This document shows positions 3,001 through 24,205 of a stretch of DNA of 41,421 nt, in pieces. Made by a program: the position numbers and the translations under genes. The stretch is taken from assembly GCA_036986255.1 (NCBI GenBank), contig BTRF01000001.1, positions 1 through 41,421 on the forward strand. The letters run 5' to 3'. How positions within the stretch are numbered: the first letter of the stretch is position 1; every line of letters begins with the position of its first letter. The notes below the pieces were generated by a model that was not told where the DNA came from, ran no database searches, and saw only the letters and a list, made by a program, of their open reading frames with translations. The stretch comes from Patescibacteria group bacterium (GTDB taxonomy: Bacteria > Patescibacteriota > WWE3 > 9FT-COMBO-53-11).

Positions 3001-6000
3001 GGTGTGACGGCAGGAGCGACCTCCCTCTCTGGCAACCTTACCCTTCTTAAGACCAACACGGCCACCTCCATCACCCAATACCCCTCCTATGACGCTATCT
3101 TCCAGGGCTCGGGCTGGGACACCACTCTGGTTGCTCCCGCCGATCTCACAGGGAGGTTGAGGGTAATCGCCGGATCGGGAGCGACCGGATCAATTCCCTA
3201 CCGCCTCGGAATTTTTGACAACACCCCCGCCGAGTTTGTTACCTTCGATCTCCTCAACCAAAGGGTGGGGATTGGGGCGGCGAGTCCAGGAGCGAAGCTG
3301 GATGTTCGGGGCGGGGCTGTCTTCAATGAAGACGCCGCTAATGAAGATTTCCGCGTGGAGGCAGTCAGCAACCCCTACGCTCTTTGGGTGGACGCCGATT
3401 ACAACACCAACCGTGGTGCTATCTTCCACAACCAATGGACCTCGACAACCGGACAGGTTGAACTCTCTACCTCTGGGTCCCTTTACGGGCAGGTGTATCT
3501 AAGATCGGGCTTTAACGCCGGATCCAGAAGAGCGTTTTTACGAGCCGCAGCGGCTGGCCAAATTTCTCTTAGCTTGGGGGATGGGTTAATCGGCGGGGAC
3601 TTTGTCCAGTATAGAACTGATGCCGGTGCTCAACAAGTTTATTTTGATTCCGACGCCGCCGAAAGCGTCGTGGGGCATACTTTTTACGCCCGACTGCAAG
3701 TAGGTTCAACTGCTCCTATTATCCTTCAAGGCGATAACGCCACTATTGCGTCCACAGTTGGGAATTTGACGCTTGATCCTATCGGCAGTCTGGTTATCAA
3801 CTCAGGCACAATTGACCTCTCGGGCCAGACCGTAGATGTGACCCTGAATAATGCTGTCGACGCGTTGAATTTCGACAGCAACACCCTGAGCATAGATGCA
3901 TTAAACGACAGCGTCGGCATCGGGACAACTAGTCCCTCTCAAAAACTAGTAGTTAAGGGTAGCGCTAGCGGTGACACTGGAATATTCCGGCTAGAGAACG
4001 ACAATACAGCAGATGGTTACAACATCTTCAGAAAGGATAGTACGGGGTTTCTGCACTTCGTTGGAAACCAGGCAACATACAGCGGCTACCGTTTCTTTGT
4101 GAATGACGCTACTGAAGTTTTGACAATATTAAATAATGGCAACGTCGGCATCGGGACTACAGCGCCTGGGTACAAGTTACATGTAAATTCTAGTTCTGCT
4201 GCAAATCCACTTTATGTTAGTTCCGGTGTATATAACAATGTCGCGGCTTTTATAAGCACAGATGATGGTGCGGTATTAACTTTGTCAGATAATGATACGA
4301 ACTCGTATATAAACGCACAAAATGGATACACATCCATAGGCGGCGCAAATAATCTGAATGCTACTAACTTGAATATTAACAATACATCTGGCAACGTCGG
4401 GATTGGGACGACGGCGCCGAGAGGTAAGCTAGATGTTGTTACCTCAACCACAAACGGGAATAATGTCTCAAGCTATTTTGGTCCGAACTACAGCTTAACC
4501 TTAGCAGGAAGACAAGATAATGATGCCGCAGCCTCAATACTCCAGAATGCTTTCGCAGAATATAATACGACAGGAGCAGCTACTTATAAATGGATAACCA
4601 CTCACGCTTCATTTGGAAGTAGAGGAATAGAATTCGGCTATGGAGCCACCAATGGTATAAAATTTTACGCCGATTCAGCAGCCACAACTGCCAATACAGC
4701 TTTTACTCCCACAGAAAGAATGAGAATAACAAACGCGGGCAACGTTGGGATCGGGACGACGAGTCCAGGTGGCACCTTAGATGTTCGTGGAGATGCATAT
4801 TTTACATCTGATTCATCCGTAGCTATAACTGCTAATGCAAGAATGTCTGCCAATGCAGGAACAAATGATAATTTGGTATTAAATGGAAAAGGGACTGGCG
4901 GAATATATTTGAATTGGGACAAAGGAACCGGTGGTGTGCATGTAGGAGCTGGTAGTACATCTGAAATATTTACAATCTTAAATTCCGGCAACGTTGGGAT
5001 CGGGACGACGAATCCAGGAACAAAGCTTGAAGTTAATGGCGAAGTTACACTCCCCTCTATCAAAGCCAGCACTAGTTTATACAATGGTACTGATATTAAC
5101 GACGCAGTTGCTCATAAAGTTTTTTTCAAAATTCCTCCTGGATCTGGTGTACCGCAATACTACAAGATTGCTAGAATTAAACTTCTAGGTACTTATGCAC
5201 AAAGTCTATTAACCGGTTGGATAAATTCCAGTGGTACTGCTCAGGTGGGTTATGAAAAAACCGCCTATTTTACCATAAAAGCTTACACTCAAGGTACGGA
5301 AACGACAAGTTTTTTAAACTACTCTAAACAAGGCGAAAATACTTCCAATATTATGGTTTATAAAATAGACGACGGGGACGGTTCCGGTCATGATTATTAT
5401 GATGTTTATGTCAATACTTATTGGTATAGCAATGCTGTTGGTGAAATAACTATTATTGGAAAACAGTATGGTAACTCCGCTGTTACGGTCTGGCAAACCG
5501 GATTGGATAGTGGCTCCTCCCCCCCTAGCTCCGGTACTCTGCAAGTTGCTAATGCAAATTATAATTTCGATACTACAGGCAACGTCGGCATCGGGACGAC
5601 GGCGCCGGGGGCAAAATTAGATGTTGCTGGCGGGGCAATAAGAACAGATAATCAGCTTATCTCCACGGTGGTCACAGGGACCGCCCCGCTGTCCGTCGCC
5701 TCTACCACTTTAGTTACCAATCTTAATGCTGATCTTTTGGATGGATACAGTTGGGGCAACGTACCGGACGGGACCGATATTTGGGTCAACGAATCTGGAG
5801 ATACAATGACAGGAACGCTTACCAGCTCTGTCGGGACTGGATCAAACCGTTTTGATTGGACTGGCGGAGCGATGAGAAGAATGACAGATCAGGGCGGGTT
5901 CTCTTTGTATTCTGATAGTTCGGTTTTGTTCCATGCTGGTGATAATGGAGTTACTTTAATATCCGATTTAGGAATTACCAACGCAACTACAACTGAAATT

Positions 6001-12934: not shown

Positions 12935-15004
12935 ATGTCGAGGAATCAGCTATCAGTAATTGGTCTCTTTTTACCTTTTTTGGTTTTCTCAACGGTCCTC
13001 GAACGCTTCAACGTTTTTATACCCCAGCTTGATTTTTCTCTTAAACTTTCCCTGATTCTTCTTCCGGTGGTTGGTCTGGTGCTGTTTTTGAAGAGGCGGC
13101 TGGTGTTTAACGCCACTTTTCTCTTCCCGTTTTTGGCTTTAGCGGTTTTGGCGCAGATAGTATCGATTCCCTTCTCGTTCGATCCGTTTCAGAGCTTCCA
13201 AGTTGTCGTCTTTACTCTCCTGATGATCGGTTTTTTCTACTTGATTGTTTGGAGTGTTAGGAGCGCAGAGGTGCTTACCCGGTTGGTCTGGGCCTGGGGA
13301 GCGGGAGCGGTGGCGGTGGCGCTTCTGGGGTTCTGGCAGTTTGGGAGGTTTCTGCTTGGGCAGGACCCGGCCCTGTTTTTCGACCGCTGGGTTTTGGCGA
13401 AGACTCTGCCTGCAGTTACTTTCATTCAAGACTTTTTCGGCCGGACTTTTTTAAGGCCGTCTTCGACTTTCATTGATGTGAATACGTCCGCTTCGTTTGT
13501 GGGAATCTTTATTTTGCTAGGGTCGGCTTGGTTGCTAAGCATGAGAGCAGAGAACAGAGAGCAGAGAACAGAGAGCAGAAAAACTCGTACCTCGTACCTC
13601 ATACTGCTAACCTTCCTGCTAATTTCTTTGGTTTACTTTATTTTGGCCTCTTCTCGAACTGCCGCTTTGGGTTTGGCCGTGGGAGCGGCAACCCTGGCTT
13701 ACCTGCTCCTCCGTGAGAAGATCGGTAAGAAATTATTGGCGGGGGGTTTGGTTCTGCTTCTGGCCGGATTGATTGGGGGAATGGCCTACTTTAGCTCCGT
13801 GGACCCGGCCCGTTCAGGGTCGGCAGTGGCTCGCCTCGATTATGCCCGCGCGGCGGTGGAGATGCTTAAGCGCAGTTCGTGGGCGGGGGTGGGAGCGGGC
13901 AACTTTGAGCCCTACTATACGCAAGTGCTCAAGCCCGGCGCCGAAGCCGGCTACTCCCATTCAATCCTTCTCACTTGGCTGGGGGAGTTGGGAGTTGGGG
14001 GGACCTTTATTAACCTTCTTCTTATCGGGGTAGTGGTGCTTTTTCTCTGGAGAATTTTAAACTTCTTGAAGTCCAATAGTGTATGGTACATCAGGGTTTC
14101 GGGATTGTTGGCCGGTTTTTTGGCCCTCGTTTTTGCCAATGTTTTTCACGCTCATTACGGCTTGGAGTTTACCTGGGTGCTGTTGGGCCTCGCAGTAGCG
14201 GGGTACTATGTGGCTAGGTCAGAGATCAGAGATCAGAGATCAGGGAACAGAGGCCAGGGATTGGGAAGGGTTGATGTGCTGGGCGTCCAGGTGGATAACA
14301 TCACGATGGGGGAGGCGGTAGATAAGGTTAAGGAGATTTTTAGATCGGGAAAGAAGGGCTTTGTTGCTACCCCTAACCCGGAGATGGTGATGCAGTCCAG
14401 GGGGGACGAGGAGTTTAGGAAAATTCTAAACGCCGCAGATATATCCGTTCCGGACGGTGCCGGGCTTATTTGGGCATCGCGGATTTGGGGGACTCCTCTA
14501 AAAGAAAGGGTTACCGGGACCGATCTTTTCTTGGAGCTTTGCGCCGAAGCTTCAAGGCGGGGAGGAAGGGTGCTTTTCTTGGAGGGTCCGGAGGGGCTGA
14601 TGTCCTCTGAAGAAGCGGCCCGGAAGCTTAAGCAGAAATATCCCAAGTTAGACATCGCAGGTACTTTGGTTATCAGCCGCAGAGATGATAAGAAAGCTCT
14701 TTCCGCGATCAAGGAAGCGAGCCGGGGAAGGGATATTGATCTTCTTTTCGTGGCTTACGGCCACGGCAAGCAGGAGCCGTGGATTAAGAGAAACCTTCCC
14801 AAAATTCCCGTGAAAGTTGCAGTAGGCGTTGGCGGGGCCTTGGATTTTGCCGCCGGGGTTCAGATTCGTGCTCCAAGGGTGGTCAGGGCTTTGGGTCTTG
14901 AGTGGTTTTACAGGCTGGCCCGCCAGCCTAACAGGTTAAAGCGGCAGGTTTATGCACTGGTTCCATTTATCTTTCTCACCTTCCGTAAATCGCTTAAGCG
15001 CTAG
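12935..15004 (+). CDS. O-antigen ligase (Wzy_C-like, polytopic membrane) fused to a WecB/TagA/CpsF (GT26) glycosyltransferase domain
   Basis: The track ORF starts at a TTG at 12902, which lies inside a repeat tract; the ATG at 12935 (MSRNQLSVIG) is the more plausible start. Multiple TM helices and an SRTAALGL-type ligase core. The C-terminal ~250 aa (VDVLGVQVDNITMGEAV...GLEWFYRLARQPNRLKRQ) match the GT26 family end to end. Confidence 0.75.
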   Translation: MSRNQLSVIGLFLPFLVFSTVLERFNVFIPQLDFSLKLSLILLPVVGLVLFLKRRLVFNATFLFPFLALAVLAQIVSIPFSFDPFQSFQVVVFTLLMIGFFYLIVWSVRSAEVLTRLVWAWGAGAVAVALLGFWQFGRFLLGQDPALFFDRWVLAKTLPAVTFIQDFFGRTFLRPSSTFIDVNTSASFVGIFILLGSAWLLSMRAENREQRTESRKTRTSYLILLTFLLISLVYFILASSRTAALGLAVGAATLAYLLLREKIGKKLLAGGLVLLLAGLIGGMAYFSSVDPARSGSAVARLDYARAAVEMLKRSSWAGVGAGNFEPYYTQVLKPGAEAGYSHSILLTWLGELGVGGTFINLLLIGVVVLFLWRILNFLKSNSVWYIRVSGLLAGFLALVFANVFHAHYGLEFTWVLLGLAVAGYYVARSEIRDQRSGNRGQGLGRVDVLGVQVDNITMGEAVDKVKEIFRSGKKGFVATPNPEMVMQSRGDEEFRKILNAADISVPDGAGLIWASRIWGTPLKERVTGTDLFLELCAEASRRGGRVLFLEGPEGLMSSEEAARKLKQKYPKLDIAGTLVISRRDDKKALSAIKEASRGRDIDLLFVAYGHGKQEPWIKRNLPKIPVKVAVGVGGALDFAAGVQIRAPRVVRALGLEWFYRLARQPNRLKRQVYALVPFIFLTFRKSLKR
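13543..13612 (+). repeat. Heptamer-periodic tract inside the ligase ORF (gagagca gagaaca gagagca gagaaca gagagca gaaaaac tcgtacc tcgtacc tcatact gctaacc)
   Basis: Ten in-phase 7-mers. They are translated as the charged loop RAENREQRTESRKTRTSY between TM helices. Confidence 0.75.
14212..14267 (+). repeat. Heptamer-periodic tract inside the ORF at the ligase/GT26 junction (ggctagg tcagaga x3 tcaggga acagagg ccaggga ttgggaa)
   Basis: Eight in-phase 7-mers translated as ARSEIRDQRSGNRGQGLG. They share a 17-mer with the intergenic tract at 27958-27974. Confidence 0.75.
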
Positions 15005-15087: not shown

Positions 15088-16849
15088 AATACAACTTGTT
15101 GTATTCATTAATCATTCGTTTGGTATCGAATTTCTCGCCGCAAGAGTTGTAGGCCTCCTTAATCATTGCGACCCATCCTCGAGGAAGGTTATTTTCACGC
15201 CGGTGGTAGAGGGGGATGATTTCATTTTCCAAGAGCGCATAGGCTGGGCCGGCGTAGTCTTCCCCATCGGGCTCAATTACCCAACCGTTGGCCGCCCGCC
15301 CGCCTTTGGCGGGTTGAAACCCTTCCAGCCACCACCCGTCGAGAGTCGAGGCGTTGAGAGCGGAATTGTAGACGGCCTTCATCCCCGAAGTTCCGCTTGC
15401 TTCCCATCCGACAACCGGAGTGTTAAGCCAGACGTCGGCGGCCGCAAGGAGGTCATGGGCGAGGGTGAGGCTGTAGTTGGGGAGGTAGATCAGGCGGTCC
15501 TTAATTCGCGGATCGCGGCTGGCTTTGATGACTTGGGTAACAAATTCTTGCCCCTCCGGATCCTCGGGGTGAGCTTTCCCGGAGATCAGGAGATACGCAG
15601 GCATTTTTTGGCTTGAAAGGATCTTGGCGAGCCGGTCAAGATCGGAGGTAAGGAGGGTGGGCTGCTTGTATTTGGCAAAGCGGCGGGCCCAGCAGAGAAC
15701 CAGCGCTTCGGGGTCGAAGGTTTTTCCGTCCAGAGCGGCTTGGCTTAGTTTGACCGCAACCCTGTTTTTGGCAGCGAGCTTCCCTTCCCAAAGGTTTTTA
15801 TCATCAGTCTTGCTATTCTGCTGATAAGTATCTTTCAACTCTGGGGGTGTCCAGCGGGGAGCGTAGACACCGTTGGTGACATAAGAGAGGGGAAGATTGG
15901 GGATGAAGCCCCAAAGCTTTTGGGAAACCTTGAAATGCTTTTTGCTTACGGCGTTGGTCGCCCGCGCGAGCCGCATGGCAAACACGCTCAGGGAGAAAAC
16001 CTCTTCCTCCCCCCACATCCGCTTTCCCAGTTCATAAATCGCTTCCAGATCAACATTAACCCCGGCAAAGAGAGCGGTTAGGACAGGGAAAATCTCCTTT
16101 TTGGGGAATTTGCTCTCGGCCCCAGCGACAGGGGTATGAGTGGTAAAGATAGTTTCGGCCTTAACCTTCTCCCGGGCGGTGTCGAGAGGGGCCCCCTGGG
16201 CGATATACTCCCGGAGGCGTTCCATAATATTTAGGGCCCCGTGGTCGTCATTGATGTGCCAGGTTTGGATCGGCAGCCGCAGTTTTCGAGCCAGCCGGAC
16301 GCTGCCGATTCCTAGAACCAGGTCGTCGGTGAGGTGGGGAGCCCAGACCCGCTCATAAAGCCGATCGGTGATCTTCCGATCCTCGGGTCTGTTTTCCGGA
16401 GTGTCTGCATCCAGAAGGTATAGAGGGGCGTGAGGGAAAGAGGGAGCTTGCCCCGAGCTTGCCGAGGGGTCCTTTCTCCAGATCTTAAGATAGATTTCAT
16501 GGTTGACAAGGGGAATTTTAATGAGTTGGCCCGTGTCAACCAGCCCCGCTTTCTCGGGCTGAATACTTTCGTAGAAGTGCTGCTGCCGGCCCTCGGGGTT
16601 AATTAACTGTTGAAAGAACCCCTCTCGGTAAAAGACGGTAATTCCGGCCATAGGGATCTTGCTCTCCGCCGCTTGATAGAGGATGTCGCCGGCCAGCACC
16701 CCCAGGCCTCCGGCGTAGGTGGGGAGGTCGTCGGTGAGGGCGAACTCGGAGCTGACGTATGCGATGTTCTCGGAGTTCACATTGGACGCGATCTTGCGAT
16801 CACTAGCAATGCTCTCGGAGTTCGCATTGGAAGCAATTTCAGGGTTCAC
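15074..16849 (-). CDS. glgP: Alpha-glucan (glycogen/maltodextrin) phosphorylase, GT35 family
   Basis: 591-aa ORF with DDLPTYAGGLGVLAGD near the N-terminus and the PLP-lysine motif WEASGTSGMK. The 5' end carries a tandem duplication; the alternative GTG start at 16780 would give MNSENIAYVSSEF. Confidence 0.85.
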   Translation of the reverse strand: MNPEIASNANSESIASDRKIASNVNSENIAYVSSEFALTDDLPTYAGGLGVLAGDILYQAAESKIPMAGITVFYREGFFQQLINPEGRQQHFYESIQPEKAGLVDTGQLIKIPLVNHEIYLKIWRKDPSASSGQAPSFPHAPLYLLDADTPENRPEDRKITDRLYERVWAPHLTDDLVLGIGSVRLARKLRLPIQTWHINDDHGALNIMERLREYIAQGAPLDTAREKVKAETIFTTHTPVAGAESKFPKKEIFPVLTALFAGVNVDLEAIYELGKRMWGEEEVFSLSVFAMRLARATNAVSKKHFKVSQKLWGFIPNLPLSYVTNGVYAPRWTPPELKDTYQQNSKTDDKNLWEGKLAAKNRVAVKLSQAALDGKTFDPEALVLCWARRFAKYKQPTLLTSDLDRLAKILSSQKMPAYLLISGKAHPEDPEGQEFVTQVIKASRDPRIKDRLIYLPNYSLTLAHDLLAAADVWLNTPVVGWEASGTSGMKAVYNSALNASTLDGWWLEGFQPAKGGRAANGWVIEPDGEDYAGPAYALLENEIIPLYHRRENNLPRGWVAMIKEAYNSCGEKFDTKRMINEYNKLYSSKK

Positions 16850-24072: not shown

Positions 24073-24205
24073 TCAGAGATCAGAGATTAGGGATCGGAGG
24101 TCAGAAGTTAGAAGTATGAAGTTAGAGGTATGAGGTTAGAGATCACTGGTTGCTGTCCACTACTCACTATCCCCTAATCCCTAATCCCTAGCACCTGAAA
24201 CCTAA
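24073..24205 (+). repeat. Longest heptamer-periodic tract (19 in-phase units, 133 nt)
   Basis: Units in order: tcagaga tcagaga ttaggga tcggagg tcagaag ttagaag tatgaag ttagagg tatgagg ttagaga tcactgg ttgctgt ccactac tcactat cccctaa tccctaa tccctag cacctga aacctaa. The first half is purine-rich and the second half pyrimidine-rich. Confidence 0.85.

What the first reader, a model, noticed from the sequence alone, without database searches (positions are those of the whole stretch)
13543..13612. A heptamer-periodic tract is translated in frame as a loop of the O-antigen-ligase domain
Ten in-phase 7-mers (gagagca gagaaca gagagca gagaaca gagagca gaaaaac tcgtacc tcgtacc tcatact gctaacc) lie inside the ORF. 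They read as SMRAENREQRTESRKTRTSY, between two predicted TM helices and just before the SRTAALGL ligase core. A 7-nt DNA periodicity cannot arise from selection on a protein repeat. The tract therefore looks like a DNA-level element of the same kind as the intergenic tracts, which happens to be stop-free and in frame and is tolerated as a hydrophilic loop.
Basis: seen in the sequence. Interest (0 to 1): 0.6.

Follow-up and report, generated by a model that had tools for sequence, protein, structure and literature searches.

The report
In-frame heptamer repeat in membrane-enzyme gene
A short run of 7-base DNA repeats, one of dozens scattered through this tiny uncultured (WWE3/Patescibacteria) genome, sits in frame inside a cell-envelope enzyme gene and adds about 11 amino acids to a short cytoplasmic loop; it looks like tolerated passenger DNA, not a protein adaptation or a genetic switch.

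Summary
Window 13543-13604 is a real 7-nt periodic tract: (CAGAGAR) x5.5, including a perfect 14-mer x2.6, then (CTCGTAC) x3. It lies in frame in a 700-aa Wzy_C + TagA/WecG fusion ORF. The last two listed 7-mers (13599-13612) are weak and mostly encode the next membrane helix.

Among 42 homologues this protein has the longest loop here: 33 residues between two anchors, against 21-22 in 35 of them. Three orthologue DNAs read at this loop show no 7-nt periodicity, so the tract is lineage-specific.

Period-7 arrays are strongly over-represented in the genome: 14 TRF arrays with score >=50 against 0 in shuffles, and 30 lag-7 tracts against 0-3 for neighbouring lags. The same unit family occurs in intergenic arrays and in this gene's inter-domain linker.

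Other heptamer arrays are read through in TopA, LepA, ArgS, LeuS, MnmA, GlmS and RecF, almost always in the hydrophilic orientation.

This is an STRR-like heptamer array behaving like Rickettsia palindromic elements: DNA-level origin, kept only where it is stop-free, length-compatible and structurally tolerated. Phase variation is unlikely but could not be tested with reads. How the arrays spread is unresolved.

The parts
13543..13582 (+). A-array: (GAGAGCA GAGAACA) x2.5 followed by GAAAA, which is CAGAGAR x5.5. Contains a perfect 14-mer x2.6. Read as MRAENREQRTESRK.
   Evidence: Same unit family as intergenic C12:10637-10666 and the linker array at 14222-14252.
13583..13604 (+). B-array: (CTCGTAC) x3, the last unit CTCATAC. 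It is the reverse complement of the GAGGTAC-type units that adjoin CAGAGAT arrays elsewhere. Read as TRTSY.
   Evidence: period 7 x3.0. GAGGTAC/GAAGTAT units are seen at C12:10600-10640 and window 24104-24141. No significant blast hit for this part alone.
13605..13612 (+). Only weakly in phase, and most likely native coding sequence for the start of the next membrane helix (LILLT).
   Evidence: TRF ends the array at 13604. These residues align with helix residues of orthologues.
12902..15004 (+). Host gene: a polytopic Wzy_C (WaaL-like) membrane domain fused to a TagA/WecG (GT26) glycosyltransferase domain. 700 aa from TTG 12902, or 689 aa from ATG 12935.
   Evidence: Pfam PF04932 at 55 bits and PF03808 at 160 bits. 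AlphaFold pLDDT 85.4. Foldseek matches TarA 5wb4 (TMt 0.90) and WaaL 7tpg_B (E 1.4e-6). 8 full or partial orthologues in the same family, none interrupted.
14219..14252 (+). Second in-frame heptamer array in the same gene: (TCAGAGA) x4.9, read as SEIRDQRSGNRG in the linker between the two domains.
   Evidence: The linker is 23 residues against a modal 15-16. Both ends, GTGGCTAG(G)T and CAGGGAACAG(A/G)GG, are shared with intergenic copies C12:13362 and C4:5911.
12875..12916 (+). Upstream heptamer/14-mer array (TGATAGC TGGTAGT)n in the divergent intergenic spacer. It carries stop codons, so it is not translated if the start is ATG 12935.
   Evidence: gene caller's product is 689 aa.

Best explanation
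The tract is one member of a genome-wide population of degenerate heptanucleotide tandem arrays of the STRR / long-SSR type. It arose at the DNA level in this lineage, overwriting and lengthening by 33 nt (11 codons) the short Arg-rich cytoplasmic loop between two membrane helices of a Wzy_C-TagA fusion enzyme.

Seven is coprime to three, so an array of 21 nt or more is read in all three phases. It therefore gives the same 7- or 14-residue periodic peptide whatever the entry frame. Such an array survives in a gene only under four conditions:
- the unit has no stop in any phase of the sense strand;
- the net length change is a multiple of three;
- the reading is hydrophilic;
- the site tolerates extra residues.

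Here all four hold. The segment (MRAENREQRTESRKTRTSY) is read through and extends the two helices into the cytoplasm. It is best seen as tolerated passenger DNA, analogous to Rickettsia palindromic elements, not as a protein-level adaptation or an on/off switch.

Shown: periodicity, over-representation, in-frame position, lineage-specific extra length, shared unit family with intergenic arrays, the same behaviour in housekeeping genes, and orientation bias.

Inferred: actual translation, near-neutrality, and the mode of origin. I favour templated copying or overwriting from another array plus local 14-nt slippage.
For: - Periodicity and statistics.
- Intact host gene with both flanks conserved in one frame.
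- Extra length: 33 residues against 21-22 in 35 of 42 homologues. Orthologue loop DNA is aperiodic.
- Shared unit family: CAGAGAN x3 occurs at about 9 sites in this genome, in both coding and intergenic sequence. Within the class it is found in only 3 of 134 genomes, representing three genera of one family.
- The linker array in the same gene shares both ends with intergenic copies and adds 7-8 residues.
- Generality: arrays are read in frame in TopA, GlmS, ArgS, MnmA, LepA, LeuS, RecF and a glycosyltransferase.
  - LepA: 22-aa insertion against 2ywe.
  - GlmS: +3 aa with replaced residues.
  - TopA: +19-21 aa against 6 relatives.
- Relatives G004 and G005 carry CAGAGAN arrays in frame in LepA, RecR, TopA and RecF.
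- Selection filter: 14 of 16 arrays in genes of >=250 aa lie in the orientation more hydrophilic than any antisense frame, and only 5 of these are forced by stops. All 9 strict AAC[AG]GCN arrays are sense, with the seventh base G or A in 20 of 21 units; T would create TAA.
- Structure: pLDDT 85.4, with tract residues forming a helical hairpin extension between H193-221 and H226-249.
- Sequence is not an assembly artefact: an independent Logan contig of 12.8 kb is identical over 13300-14400.
Against: - There is no direct evidence of translation. No RNA or proteome data were found; one search returned DNA runs only.
- The first seven residues (SMRAENR) resemble the ancestral S[WF][KR]REDR. The A-array could therefore have grown in place from native AGA/GAG codons rather than been copied from another array.
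- The B-part has no significant match elsewhere.
- The tract has no stable hairpin (z -0.07 RNA, -0.08 and -0.75 DNA), so it lacks the palindromic character of RPEs.
- Strict arrays are not depleted in coding sequence (9 of 9 AACAGCN arrays lie in genes). Simple 'random insertion plus strong purifying filter' does not predict this.
- Neutrality is assumed, not measured.
- My gene model for the genome-wide counts is a crude longest-ORF model.
Confidence: 0.75

Rival explanations
1. In-place origin. The array grew by replication slippage from the native purine-rich Arg/Glu/Asp codons of the loop (AGA-GAG-GAC-AGA type), with no sequence brought in from another array. Its resemblance to other CAGAGAN arrays would be convergence on a slippage-prone motif.
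For: SMRAENR aligns with the ancestral S[WF][KR]REDR. The perfect 14-mer x2.6 implies recent local duplication. The B-part has no detectable donor. Mrazek's polymerase-slippage proposal for heptamer SSRs is summarised in PMC4679880.
Against: Orthologue loop DNA uses CGG/AGG/GAT/CGA codons and shows no heptamer seed. The exact units GAGAACA and GAGAGCA stand side by side in the intergenic array C12:10637-10666. GAGGTAC-type units adjoin CAGAGAN arrays at two other loci. The sister array in the linker shares non-repeat ends with intergenic copies. A single 14-nt slip would break the frame.
Confidence: 0.18
2. Contingency locus. The 7/14-nt repeat is a slipped-strand mispairing switch that turns the surface-glycan enzyme on and off by frameshift (phase variation).
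For: The unit length is not a multiple of three. It is a cell-envelope glycopolymer gene, the classic target class. There is a perfect 14-mer x2.6. A second array lies in the same ORF and a third lies upstream.
Against: - Copy number is low and the units are degenerate (85% at period 7).
- The same kind of array sits in essential single-copy genes (TopA, LepA, ArgS, LeuS, GlmS), where switching off would be lethal.
- No length variant appears in the only run holding the locus, but those are contigs at about 9.5x, which drop rare variants.
- No variant protein is in the 90% cluster.
- No variant was found by flank-pattern scans.
Confidence: 0.06
3. Protein-level adaptation. A longer, charged cytoplasmic loop was selected for function, such as partner binding or topology, and the DNA periodicity is incidental.
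For: The loop keeps a net positive charge, as in orthologues (RREDRRR against 6 K/R and 4 E), consistent with the positive-inside rule. It is modelled as an ordered helical extension. Four other homologues also have about +9 residues in this loop.
Against: A perfect 14-nt DNA repeat, including synonymous positions, cannot be maintained by selection on a non-repetitive peptide. The same units occur in non-coding DNA. The peptide composition follows from the unit in any frame.
Confidence: 0.03
4. Artefact or pseudogene. The tract would be an assembly error, or would mark an inactivated gene.
For: The genome is a metagenome-assembled draft (52 contigs, 84% complete). Repeats are error-prone in assembly.
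Against: An independent Logan contig is identical over 1.1 kb. The ORF is uninterrupted for 700 codons, with family-invariant residues kept on both sides.
Confidence: 0.02

Closest known systems
Cyanobacterial STRR sequences and heptanucleotide long SSRs (Calothrix/Nostoc; Xanthomonas and Nostoc GGGAATC-type; Beggiatoaceae TAACTGA). Sources: PMC4692102, PMC4679880; Mazel 1990 and Mrazek 2007 from my own knowledge and as cited there.
   Same: - Short tandem arrays of 7-nt units.
- Several unit families per genome.
- Dispersed, with strong and specific over-representation of period 7.
- Often paired in direct or inverted arrangement.
- Patchy phylogenetic distribution.
- Function and spreading mechanism unknown.
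   Different: The published cases are described as mainly intergenic and under-represented in coding regions (PMC4692102). Here many arrays are read in frame inside conserved genes. The unit sequences differ. The host is a ~0.6-Mb Patescibacteria (WWE3-like) genome. My literature search found no paper on heptamer repeats in this phylum.
Rickettsia palindromic elements (RPEs; Ogata et al. 2000, as summarised in PMC10969869)
   Same: A dispersed repeat family sits in frame in many unrelated, functional genes, including housekeeping genes. It is translated as extra peptide segments at structurally tolerated positions and behaves as selfish or passenger DNA.
   Different: RPEs are ~100-150-bp palindromic elements with a conserved consensus. 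The tract here is ~60 nt, is built of 7-nt tandem units, has no significant hairpin, and partly overwrites native codons rather than simply inserting.
Phase-variable simple sequence repeats of contingency loci (e.g. Haemophilus tetra- and heptanucleotide repeats, PMC8262952)
   Same: A repeat unit not divisible by three, lying within or next to a surface-structure gene.
   Different: Contingency repeats are long, perfect and polymorphic, and they avoid essential genes. These arrays are short, degenerate and also present in essential genes, and no polymorphism was detectable.

Membership tests
Heptanucleotide STRR / long-SSR arrays | Tandem head-to-tail copies of a 7-nt unit | tested here: met
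   TRF period 7 x5.9, period 14 x2.6 at 100% matches, and period 7 x3.0.
Heptanucleotide STRR / long-SSR arrays | Many dispersed arrays per genome, with period 7 specifically over-represented | tested here: met
   14 arrays against 0.0 in shuffles at score >=50. 30 lag-7 tracts against 0-3 for other lags. 77 merged period-7k tracts.
Heptanucleotide STRR / long-SSR arrays | Predominantly intergenic and under-represented in coding sequence (as published for Nostoc and Xanthomonas) | tested here: inconclusive
   Per base, tracts are about 3.6x denser in intergenic DNA: 8 fully intergenic tracts in ~11% of the genome. However, 18 of 30 lag-7 tracts and 9 of 9 strict AACAGCN arrays lie in genes. 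The gene model used is crude.
RPE-like in-frame selfish repeats | The same repeat family in frame in several unrelated functional genes | tested here: met
   The CAGAGAN family occurs twice in this gene, in a 685-aa ORF on C23, and in LepA, RecR, TopA and RecF of relatives. The AACAGCN family occurs in TopA, LeuS, ArgS, MnmA, LepA and a glycosyltransferase.
RPE-like in-frame selfish repeats | Palindromic, hairpin-forming element | tested here: not met
   Fold z-scores are -0.07 (RNA), -0.08 and -0.75 (DNA) for this tract. Other bipartite arrays give z of +0.47 to -1.92.
RPE-like in-frame selfish repeats | Located at structurally permissive, surface or loop positions | tested here: met
   The tract sits at the cytoplasmic turn between two membrane helices in the AlphaFold model. 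This loop varies in length among homologues. The LepA array lies in a hairpin turn relative to 2ywe. All of this rests on a model and alignments, not an experiment.
Phase-variable contingency SSR | Length polymorphism of the repeat within populations or between strains | not testable with these tools
   Only assembler contigs of one run hold the locus, and they show no variant. No variant member is in the protein cluster. Flank-pattern scans found nothing.
Phase-variable contingency SSR | Repeats confined to dispensable or surface genes, not essential genes | tested here: not met
   Arrays of the same kind lie in TopA, LepA, ArgS, LeuS and GlmS.
Wzy_C (O-antigen ligase/polymerase-like) + GT26 TagA/WecG (host gene) | Pfam hits above the gathering score, and fold similarity to WaaL and to TarA/TagA | tested here: met
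   PF04932 at 55 bits (cut-off 31.7) and PF03808 at 160 bits (cut-off 27.4). Foldseek: 7tpg_B at E 1.4e-6; 5wb4 and 7n41 at TMt 0.90-0.92. Substrate and activity were not tested. An organism of this phylum is not expected to make LPS O-antigen (my own knowledge).

The most novel reading that the evidence does not exclude
The heptamer arrays are not random slippage products. They would be written or copied by a dedicated, template-using process that repeatedly overwrites the same few permissive protein loops with whichever unit family is current in each lineage.

Observations that fit this reading:
- One TopA site carries an AACAGCG array in this genome and a CAGAGAT array in G004.
- A RecF site is occupied in both genomes.
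- The RecR array in G004 and G005 replaces native residues with a net gain of one residue.
- Strict arrays are not depleted in genes.
- Unit families are patchy among genera.
- The genome's single PF05635 (rRNA-IVS/Avd-like) gene is flanked by inverted heptamer arrays, and intergenic CAGAGAT arrays abut REP palindromes near a RAYT-bearing genome. These point to candidate machineries.

If true, this would be an unrecognised class of prokaryotic repeat element that remodels protein loops.
Probability: 0.2. Interest if true: 0.8.

Novelty: new variant of a known kind. Interest (0 to 1): 0.5.

Why it matters
Heptanucleotide arrays have been known since 1990, but neither their function nor their mechanism is understood, and they are described as intergenic. 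This reduced genome shows them read through inside a membrane enzyme and inside essential enzymes, with clear signs of a selection filter:
- no stops in the sense strand;
- hydrophilic orientation;
- placement in permissive loops.

That has three consequences.
1. It gives a natural experiment on which protein sites tolerate insertions.
2. It warns annotators that odd low-complexity R/E/Q/N/S/T-rich segments in Patescibacteria proteins can be DNA-level repeats rather than protein features.
3. It offers comparative handles on how such arrays spread: the same sites carry different units in sister genera.

For this particular gene the practical message is that it is intact and probably functional.

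Tried and rejected
- **Hairpin or terminator-like structure.** Rejected for this tract. Fold energies equal those of shuffles.
- **Read-level polymorphism.** Only one DNA run holds the locus, and only as Logan contigs. They show no differences and cannot show rare variants.
- **Strain variants.** The 90% protein cluster holds only the same sequence with another start. Exact-flank scans with a variable gap found nothing in metagenome contigs or genome contigs.
- **Is the +9-residue loop of the closest homologue (P0005) also a heptamer array?** No. Its DNA is aperiodic.
- **Does presence of the PF05635 gene correlate with CAGAGAN arrays across the family?** No. The gene is in 9 of 10 genomes and the arrays are in 3.
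- **Literature.** I found no paper on heptamer repeats in Patescibacteria and none on in-frame heptanucleotide arrays in Nostoc coding sequences.
- **Genome-wide periodicity in relatives.** Their loci are not available to the Python box, so this was not computed.
Full report
**1. The observation**

Tandem Repeats Finder reports three arrays:
- a period-7 array at 13538-13579 (5.9 copies, 85% matches);
- a perfect period-14 array at 13543-13579 (GAGAGCAGAGAACA x2.6, 100% matches, score 74);
- a second period-7 array at 13584-13604 (CTCGTAC x3.0).

The tract lies inside the 700-codon ORF 12902..15004. The public gene call starts at ATG 12935 and gives 689 aa. The tract is read as S213-MRAENREQRTESRKTRTSY-232.

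The last two '7-mers' (13599-13612) are only weakly periodic. They mostly encode the start of the next membrane helix, which aligns with native residues of orthologues. The real array therefore has about eight units in two blocks, not ten.

The host protein has Pfam Wzy_C at aa 238-370 and Glyco_tran_WecG at aa 512-682. An AlphaFold model built on 42 homologues has mean pLDDT 85.4. Its C-terminal domain superposes on TarA/TagA (5wb4, 7n41; TMt 0.90-0.92). Its membrane part matches the WaaL ligase 7tpg_B (E 1.4e-6).

**2. More than chance**

| Measure | Observed | Control |
|---|---|---|
| TRF period 7, score >=30 | 69 rows | 11.7 in dinucleotide shuffles |
| TRF period 7, score >=50 | 14 | 0.0 |
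| TRF period 14, score >=50 | 9 | 0.1 |
| Lag-7 tracts, >=21 of 28 matches | 30 | 0-3 for lags 5, 6, 8-11 |

No other period reaches score 50 more than four times. Heptamer periodicity is therefore a specific property of this genome.

**3. Lineage-specific extra sequence**

Eight orthologues of the fused protein exist in the other genomes of the same family, at 55-62% identity, and none is interrupted. At this position they have a 7-9-residue Arg-rich loop: S[FW][RK]REDRRR or T-KDRRNR.

In an alignment of 42 homologues, the distance between anchors L212 and F246 is 33 residues here. It is 21-22 in 35 sequences, and 23, 27 or 31 in the remaining six.

The loop DNA of three orthologues has no 7-nt periodicity. 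TRF finds no array there in six orthologous loci. The closest homologue (65% identity) has its own +9 residues in the same loop, but its DNA is aperiodic.

So the loop is length-permissive, and the heptamer tract is specific to this lineage. The net gain is 11 codons. Part of the ancestral loop was overwritten rather than displaced.

**4. Same kind as the intergenic tracts**

The pattern CAGAGAN x3 (one mismatch allowed) gives 15 overlapping matches at about nine sites in this genome. Some are in ORFs and some are between genes. Among 134 genomes of the class it is found only here and in two other genera of the same family, G004 and G005.

The A-part matches the intergenic array C12:10637-10666 at 90% over 30 nt, including the adjacent units GAGAACA and GAGAGCA. 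It matches the array in this gene's own linker at 87% over 31 nt.

The B-part is the reverse complement of GAGGTAC-type units. Such units adjoin CAGAGAT arrays at C12:10600 and at window 24104-24141. The B-part alone has no significant match.

The linker array (14219-14252, read as SEIRDQRSGNRG) adds 7-8 residues relative to the modal linker. It shares its non-repeat ends, GTGGCTAG(G)T and CAGGGAACAG(A/G)GG, with intergenic copies. This argues for copying of a pre-existing element rather than local slippage.

**5. A general behaviour in this genome and its relatives**

Heptamer arrays are read in frame in these genes:
- topoisomerase I (two arrays);
- GlmS;
- arginyl-tRNA synthetase;
- MnmA;
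- LepA;
- leucyl-tRNA synthetase (two arrays);
- RecF;
- a glycosyltransferase.

Recurrent peptides are EQRTANS, from (GAACAGC)n, and AVSRKPL, from (GCCGTTA)n.

Comparisons with homologues show how the arrays sit in the proteins:
- Against solved structures, the LepA array is a 22-residue insertion in a hairpin turn (2ywe).
- The GlmS array replaces native residues with a net +3 (1jxa).
- In TopA, one array adds 19-21 residues relative to six relatives and is shared in decayed form with G003. A second site carries an AACAGCG array here and a CAGAGAT array in G004.
- G005 has a CAGAGAN array in another part of LepA.
- G004 and G005 have one in RecR that overwrites native residues with net +1 relative to this genome.
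- G004 has two in RecF.

The AACAGCN family is confined to this genome among the ten genomes of its family.

**6. Signs of a selection filter**

Seven is coprime to three, so an array of 21 nt or more passes through all three phases. It gives the same periodic peptide in any frame. What matters is that no phase of the sense strand has a stop, and that the net length change is divisible by three.

All three sense frames of the A-part are open. The antisense frames are also open but would give hydrophobic Cys/Leu/Phe-rich peptides.

Of 16 arrays in genes of 250 aa or more, 14 lie in the orientation that is more hydrophilic than every antisense frame. Only five of those are forced by antisense stops.

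All nine strict AAC[AG]GCN arrays are on the sense strand. Their seventh base is G or A in 20 of 21 units; T would create TAA.

Per base, lag-7 tracts are about 3.6 times denser in intergenic DNA (with a crude gene model). Yet well-preserved arrays are not depleted in genes. A simple model of random insertion plus a strong filter does not predict that. I leave it unexplained.

**7. What the tract does in the protein**

The AlphaFold model puts M214-Y232 into the ends of helices 193-221 and 226-249, with a turn at R222-S225 and pLDDT 82-91. The ancestral loop is strongly positive, and the next helix leads to the invariant S251-R252 of the ligase core. The turn is therefore inferred to be cytoplasmic, by the positive-inside rule.

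The inserted segment keeps a net positive charge. Nothing suggests a new function. I infer a tolerated helical extension.

**8. Rival explanations**

- **In-place growth** from native Arg/Glu codons is possible for the A-part, because SMRAENR resembles the ancestral loop and the 14-mer is perfect. It does not explain the shared units, the B-part, or the sister array with conserved ends.
- **Phase variation** is unlikely. Copy number is low, units are degenerate, and the same arrays sit in essential genes. No variant was found in the contigs, the protein cluster or the flank scans. This test is weak without raw reads.
- **Protein-level selection** cannot keep a perfect 14-nt DNA repeat.
- **Assembly error** is contradicted by an identical independent contig.
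- **A hairpin role** is rejected.

**9. Comparison with what is known**

Heptanucleotide SSRs are the most over-represented long SSRs in many bacteria. They are known as STRR in heterocystous cyanobacteria, as GGGAATC arrays in Xanthomonas and Nostoc, and as TAACTGA arrays in Beggiatoaceae. They are reported as mainly intergenic, and their mechanism is unknown (PMC4692102, PMC4679880).

In-frame selfish repeats are best known from the Rickettsia palindromic elements (PMC10969869).

This tract combines the two: a heptamer array behaving like an RPE. I found no paper describing this in Patescibacteria.

Earlier AI notes of this scan report similar in-frame heptamer arrays in several other phyla. 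They also report heptamer arrays in this same window. Those notes are leads, not independent evidence.

I confirmed one of their points here. The genome's single PF05635 gene (C11:15393-15710) is flanked by inverted (AAGTTGC)n arrays.

**10. Verdict**

The tract is a new variant of a known kind. It is of moderate interest as one clear member of a larger, poorly understood phenomenon, and it is probably without consequence for the gene's function.

Noticed in passing
G000 contigs C5:135-525, C7:13215-13263, C12:605-658 and 4835-4910, C21:5030-5080, C23:4661-4711, C35:3612-3655, C14:10814-10852: Heptamer arrays, mostly (AACAGCR)n followed by an A-rich spacer and (AGCCGTT)n, are read in frame in TopA, GlmS, LeuS, ArgS, MnmA, a glycosyltransferase, LepA and RecF. 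They give recurrent peptides EQRTANS...AVSRKPL. This unit family is absent from the nine other genomes of the family.
   Followed up: partly
L048 (G004 TopA) against L041 (G000 TopA), alignment A3 columns 160-200; L039 (G004 RecF): The same protein sites carry heptamer arrays of different unit families in different genera: TopA has QRTANSEQQ here and SEIRDQRSE in G004, and RecF is occupied before DLAAYGSRGEQR in both. This is either repeated hits on a few permissive loops or in-place turnover of the unit sequence.
   Followed up: partly
G000 C11:15337-15860 (L023): The only PF05635 (23S rRNA intervening-sequence / Avd-like) gene of this genome (15393-15710, minus strand) is flanked by inverted heptamer arrays: (AAGTTGC)n at 15337-15372 and (GCAACTT)n at 15822-15860.
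   Followed up: partly
G000 C4:5860-5940, C4:8480-8550, C12:10640-10720, C12:13360-13430: Intergenic CAGAGAT arrays have conserved ends. They begin with GCTAG(C/T) and end with CAGGGAACAGGGGGAGCAG. About 10 nt further on lies the REP-like palindrome CAACCCTTAGGGTTG, which another note links to a RAYT transposase at window 10536-11225.
   Followed up: no
G000 C11:15971-16089: A 49-nt sequence (CCGTCAGCAGTTGCGCGAAGGACGGGATCTTTCAATCCCTATCTTCGCT) occurs twice, 70 nt apart, at the contig end. It is a possible repeat array cut off by the assembly.
   Followed up: no
L006:1857-1892 (G009 orthologue of the host gene): A 17-nt palindromic repeat (AGGGGTTCAACCCCTAA x2.1) lies inside the orthologous ORF, where that protein has an extra segment (TAPGVEPLKGFNPLS). 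It appears to be a REP-like palindrome read in frame in a different loop of the same protein family.
   Followed up: no
window 24172-24190: Perfect (CCCTAAT) x2.7 lies next to the large intergenic heptamer tract. It is another unit family of the same 7-nt period.
   Followed up: no
window 13521-13540 against G000 C4:~5945-5960: The native coding flank GGTTGCTAAGCA, just 5' of the tract, resembles the flank GGTGGCTAAGTA of an intergenic CAGAGAT array (10 of 12 matches). This is either chance or microhomology used in copying.
   Followed up: no
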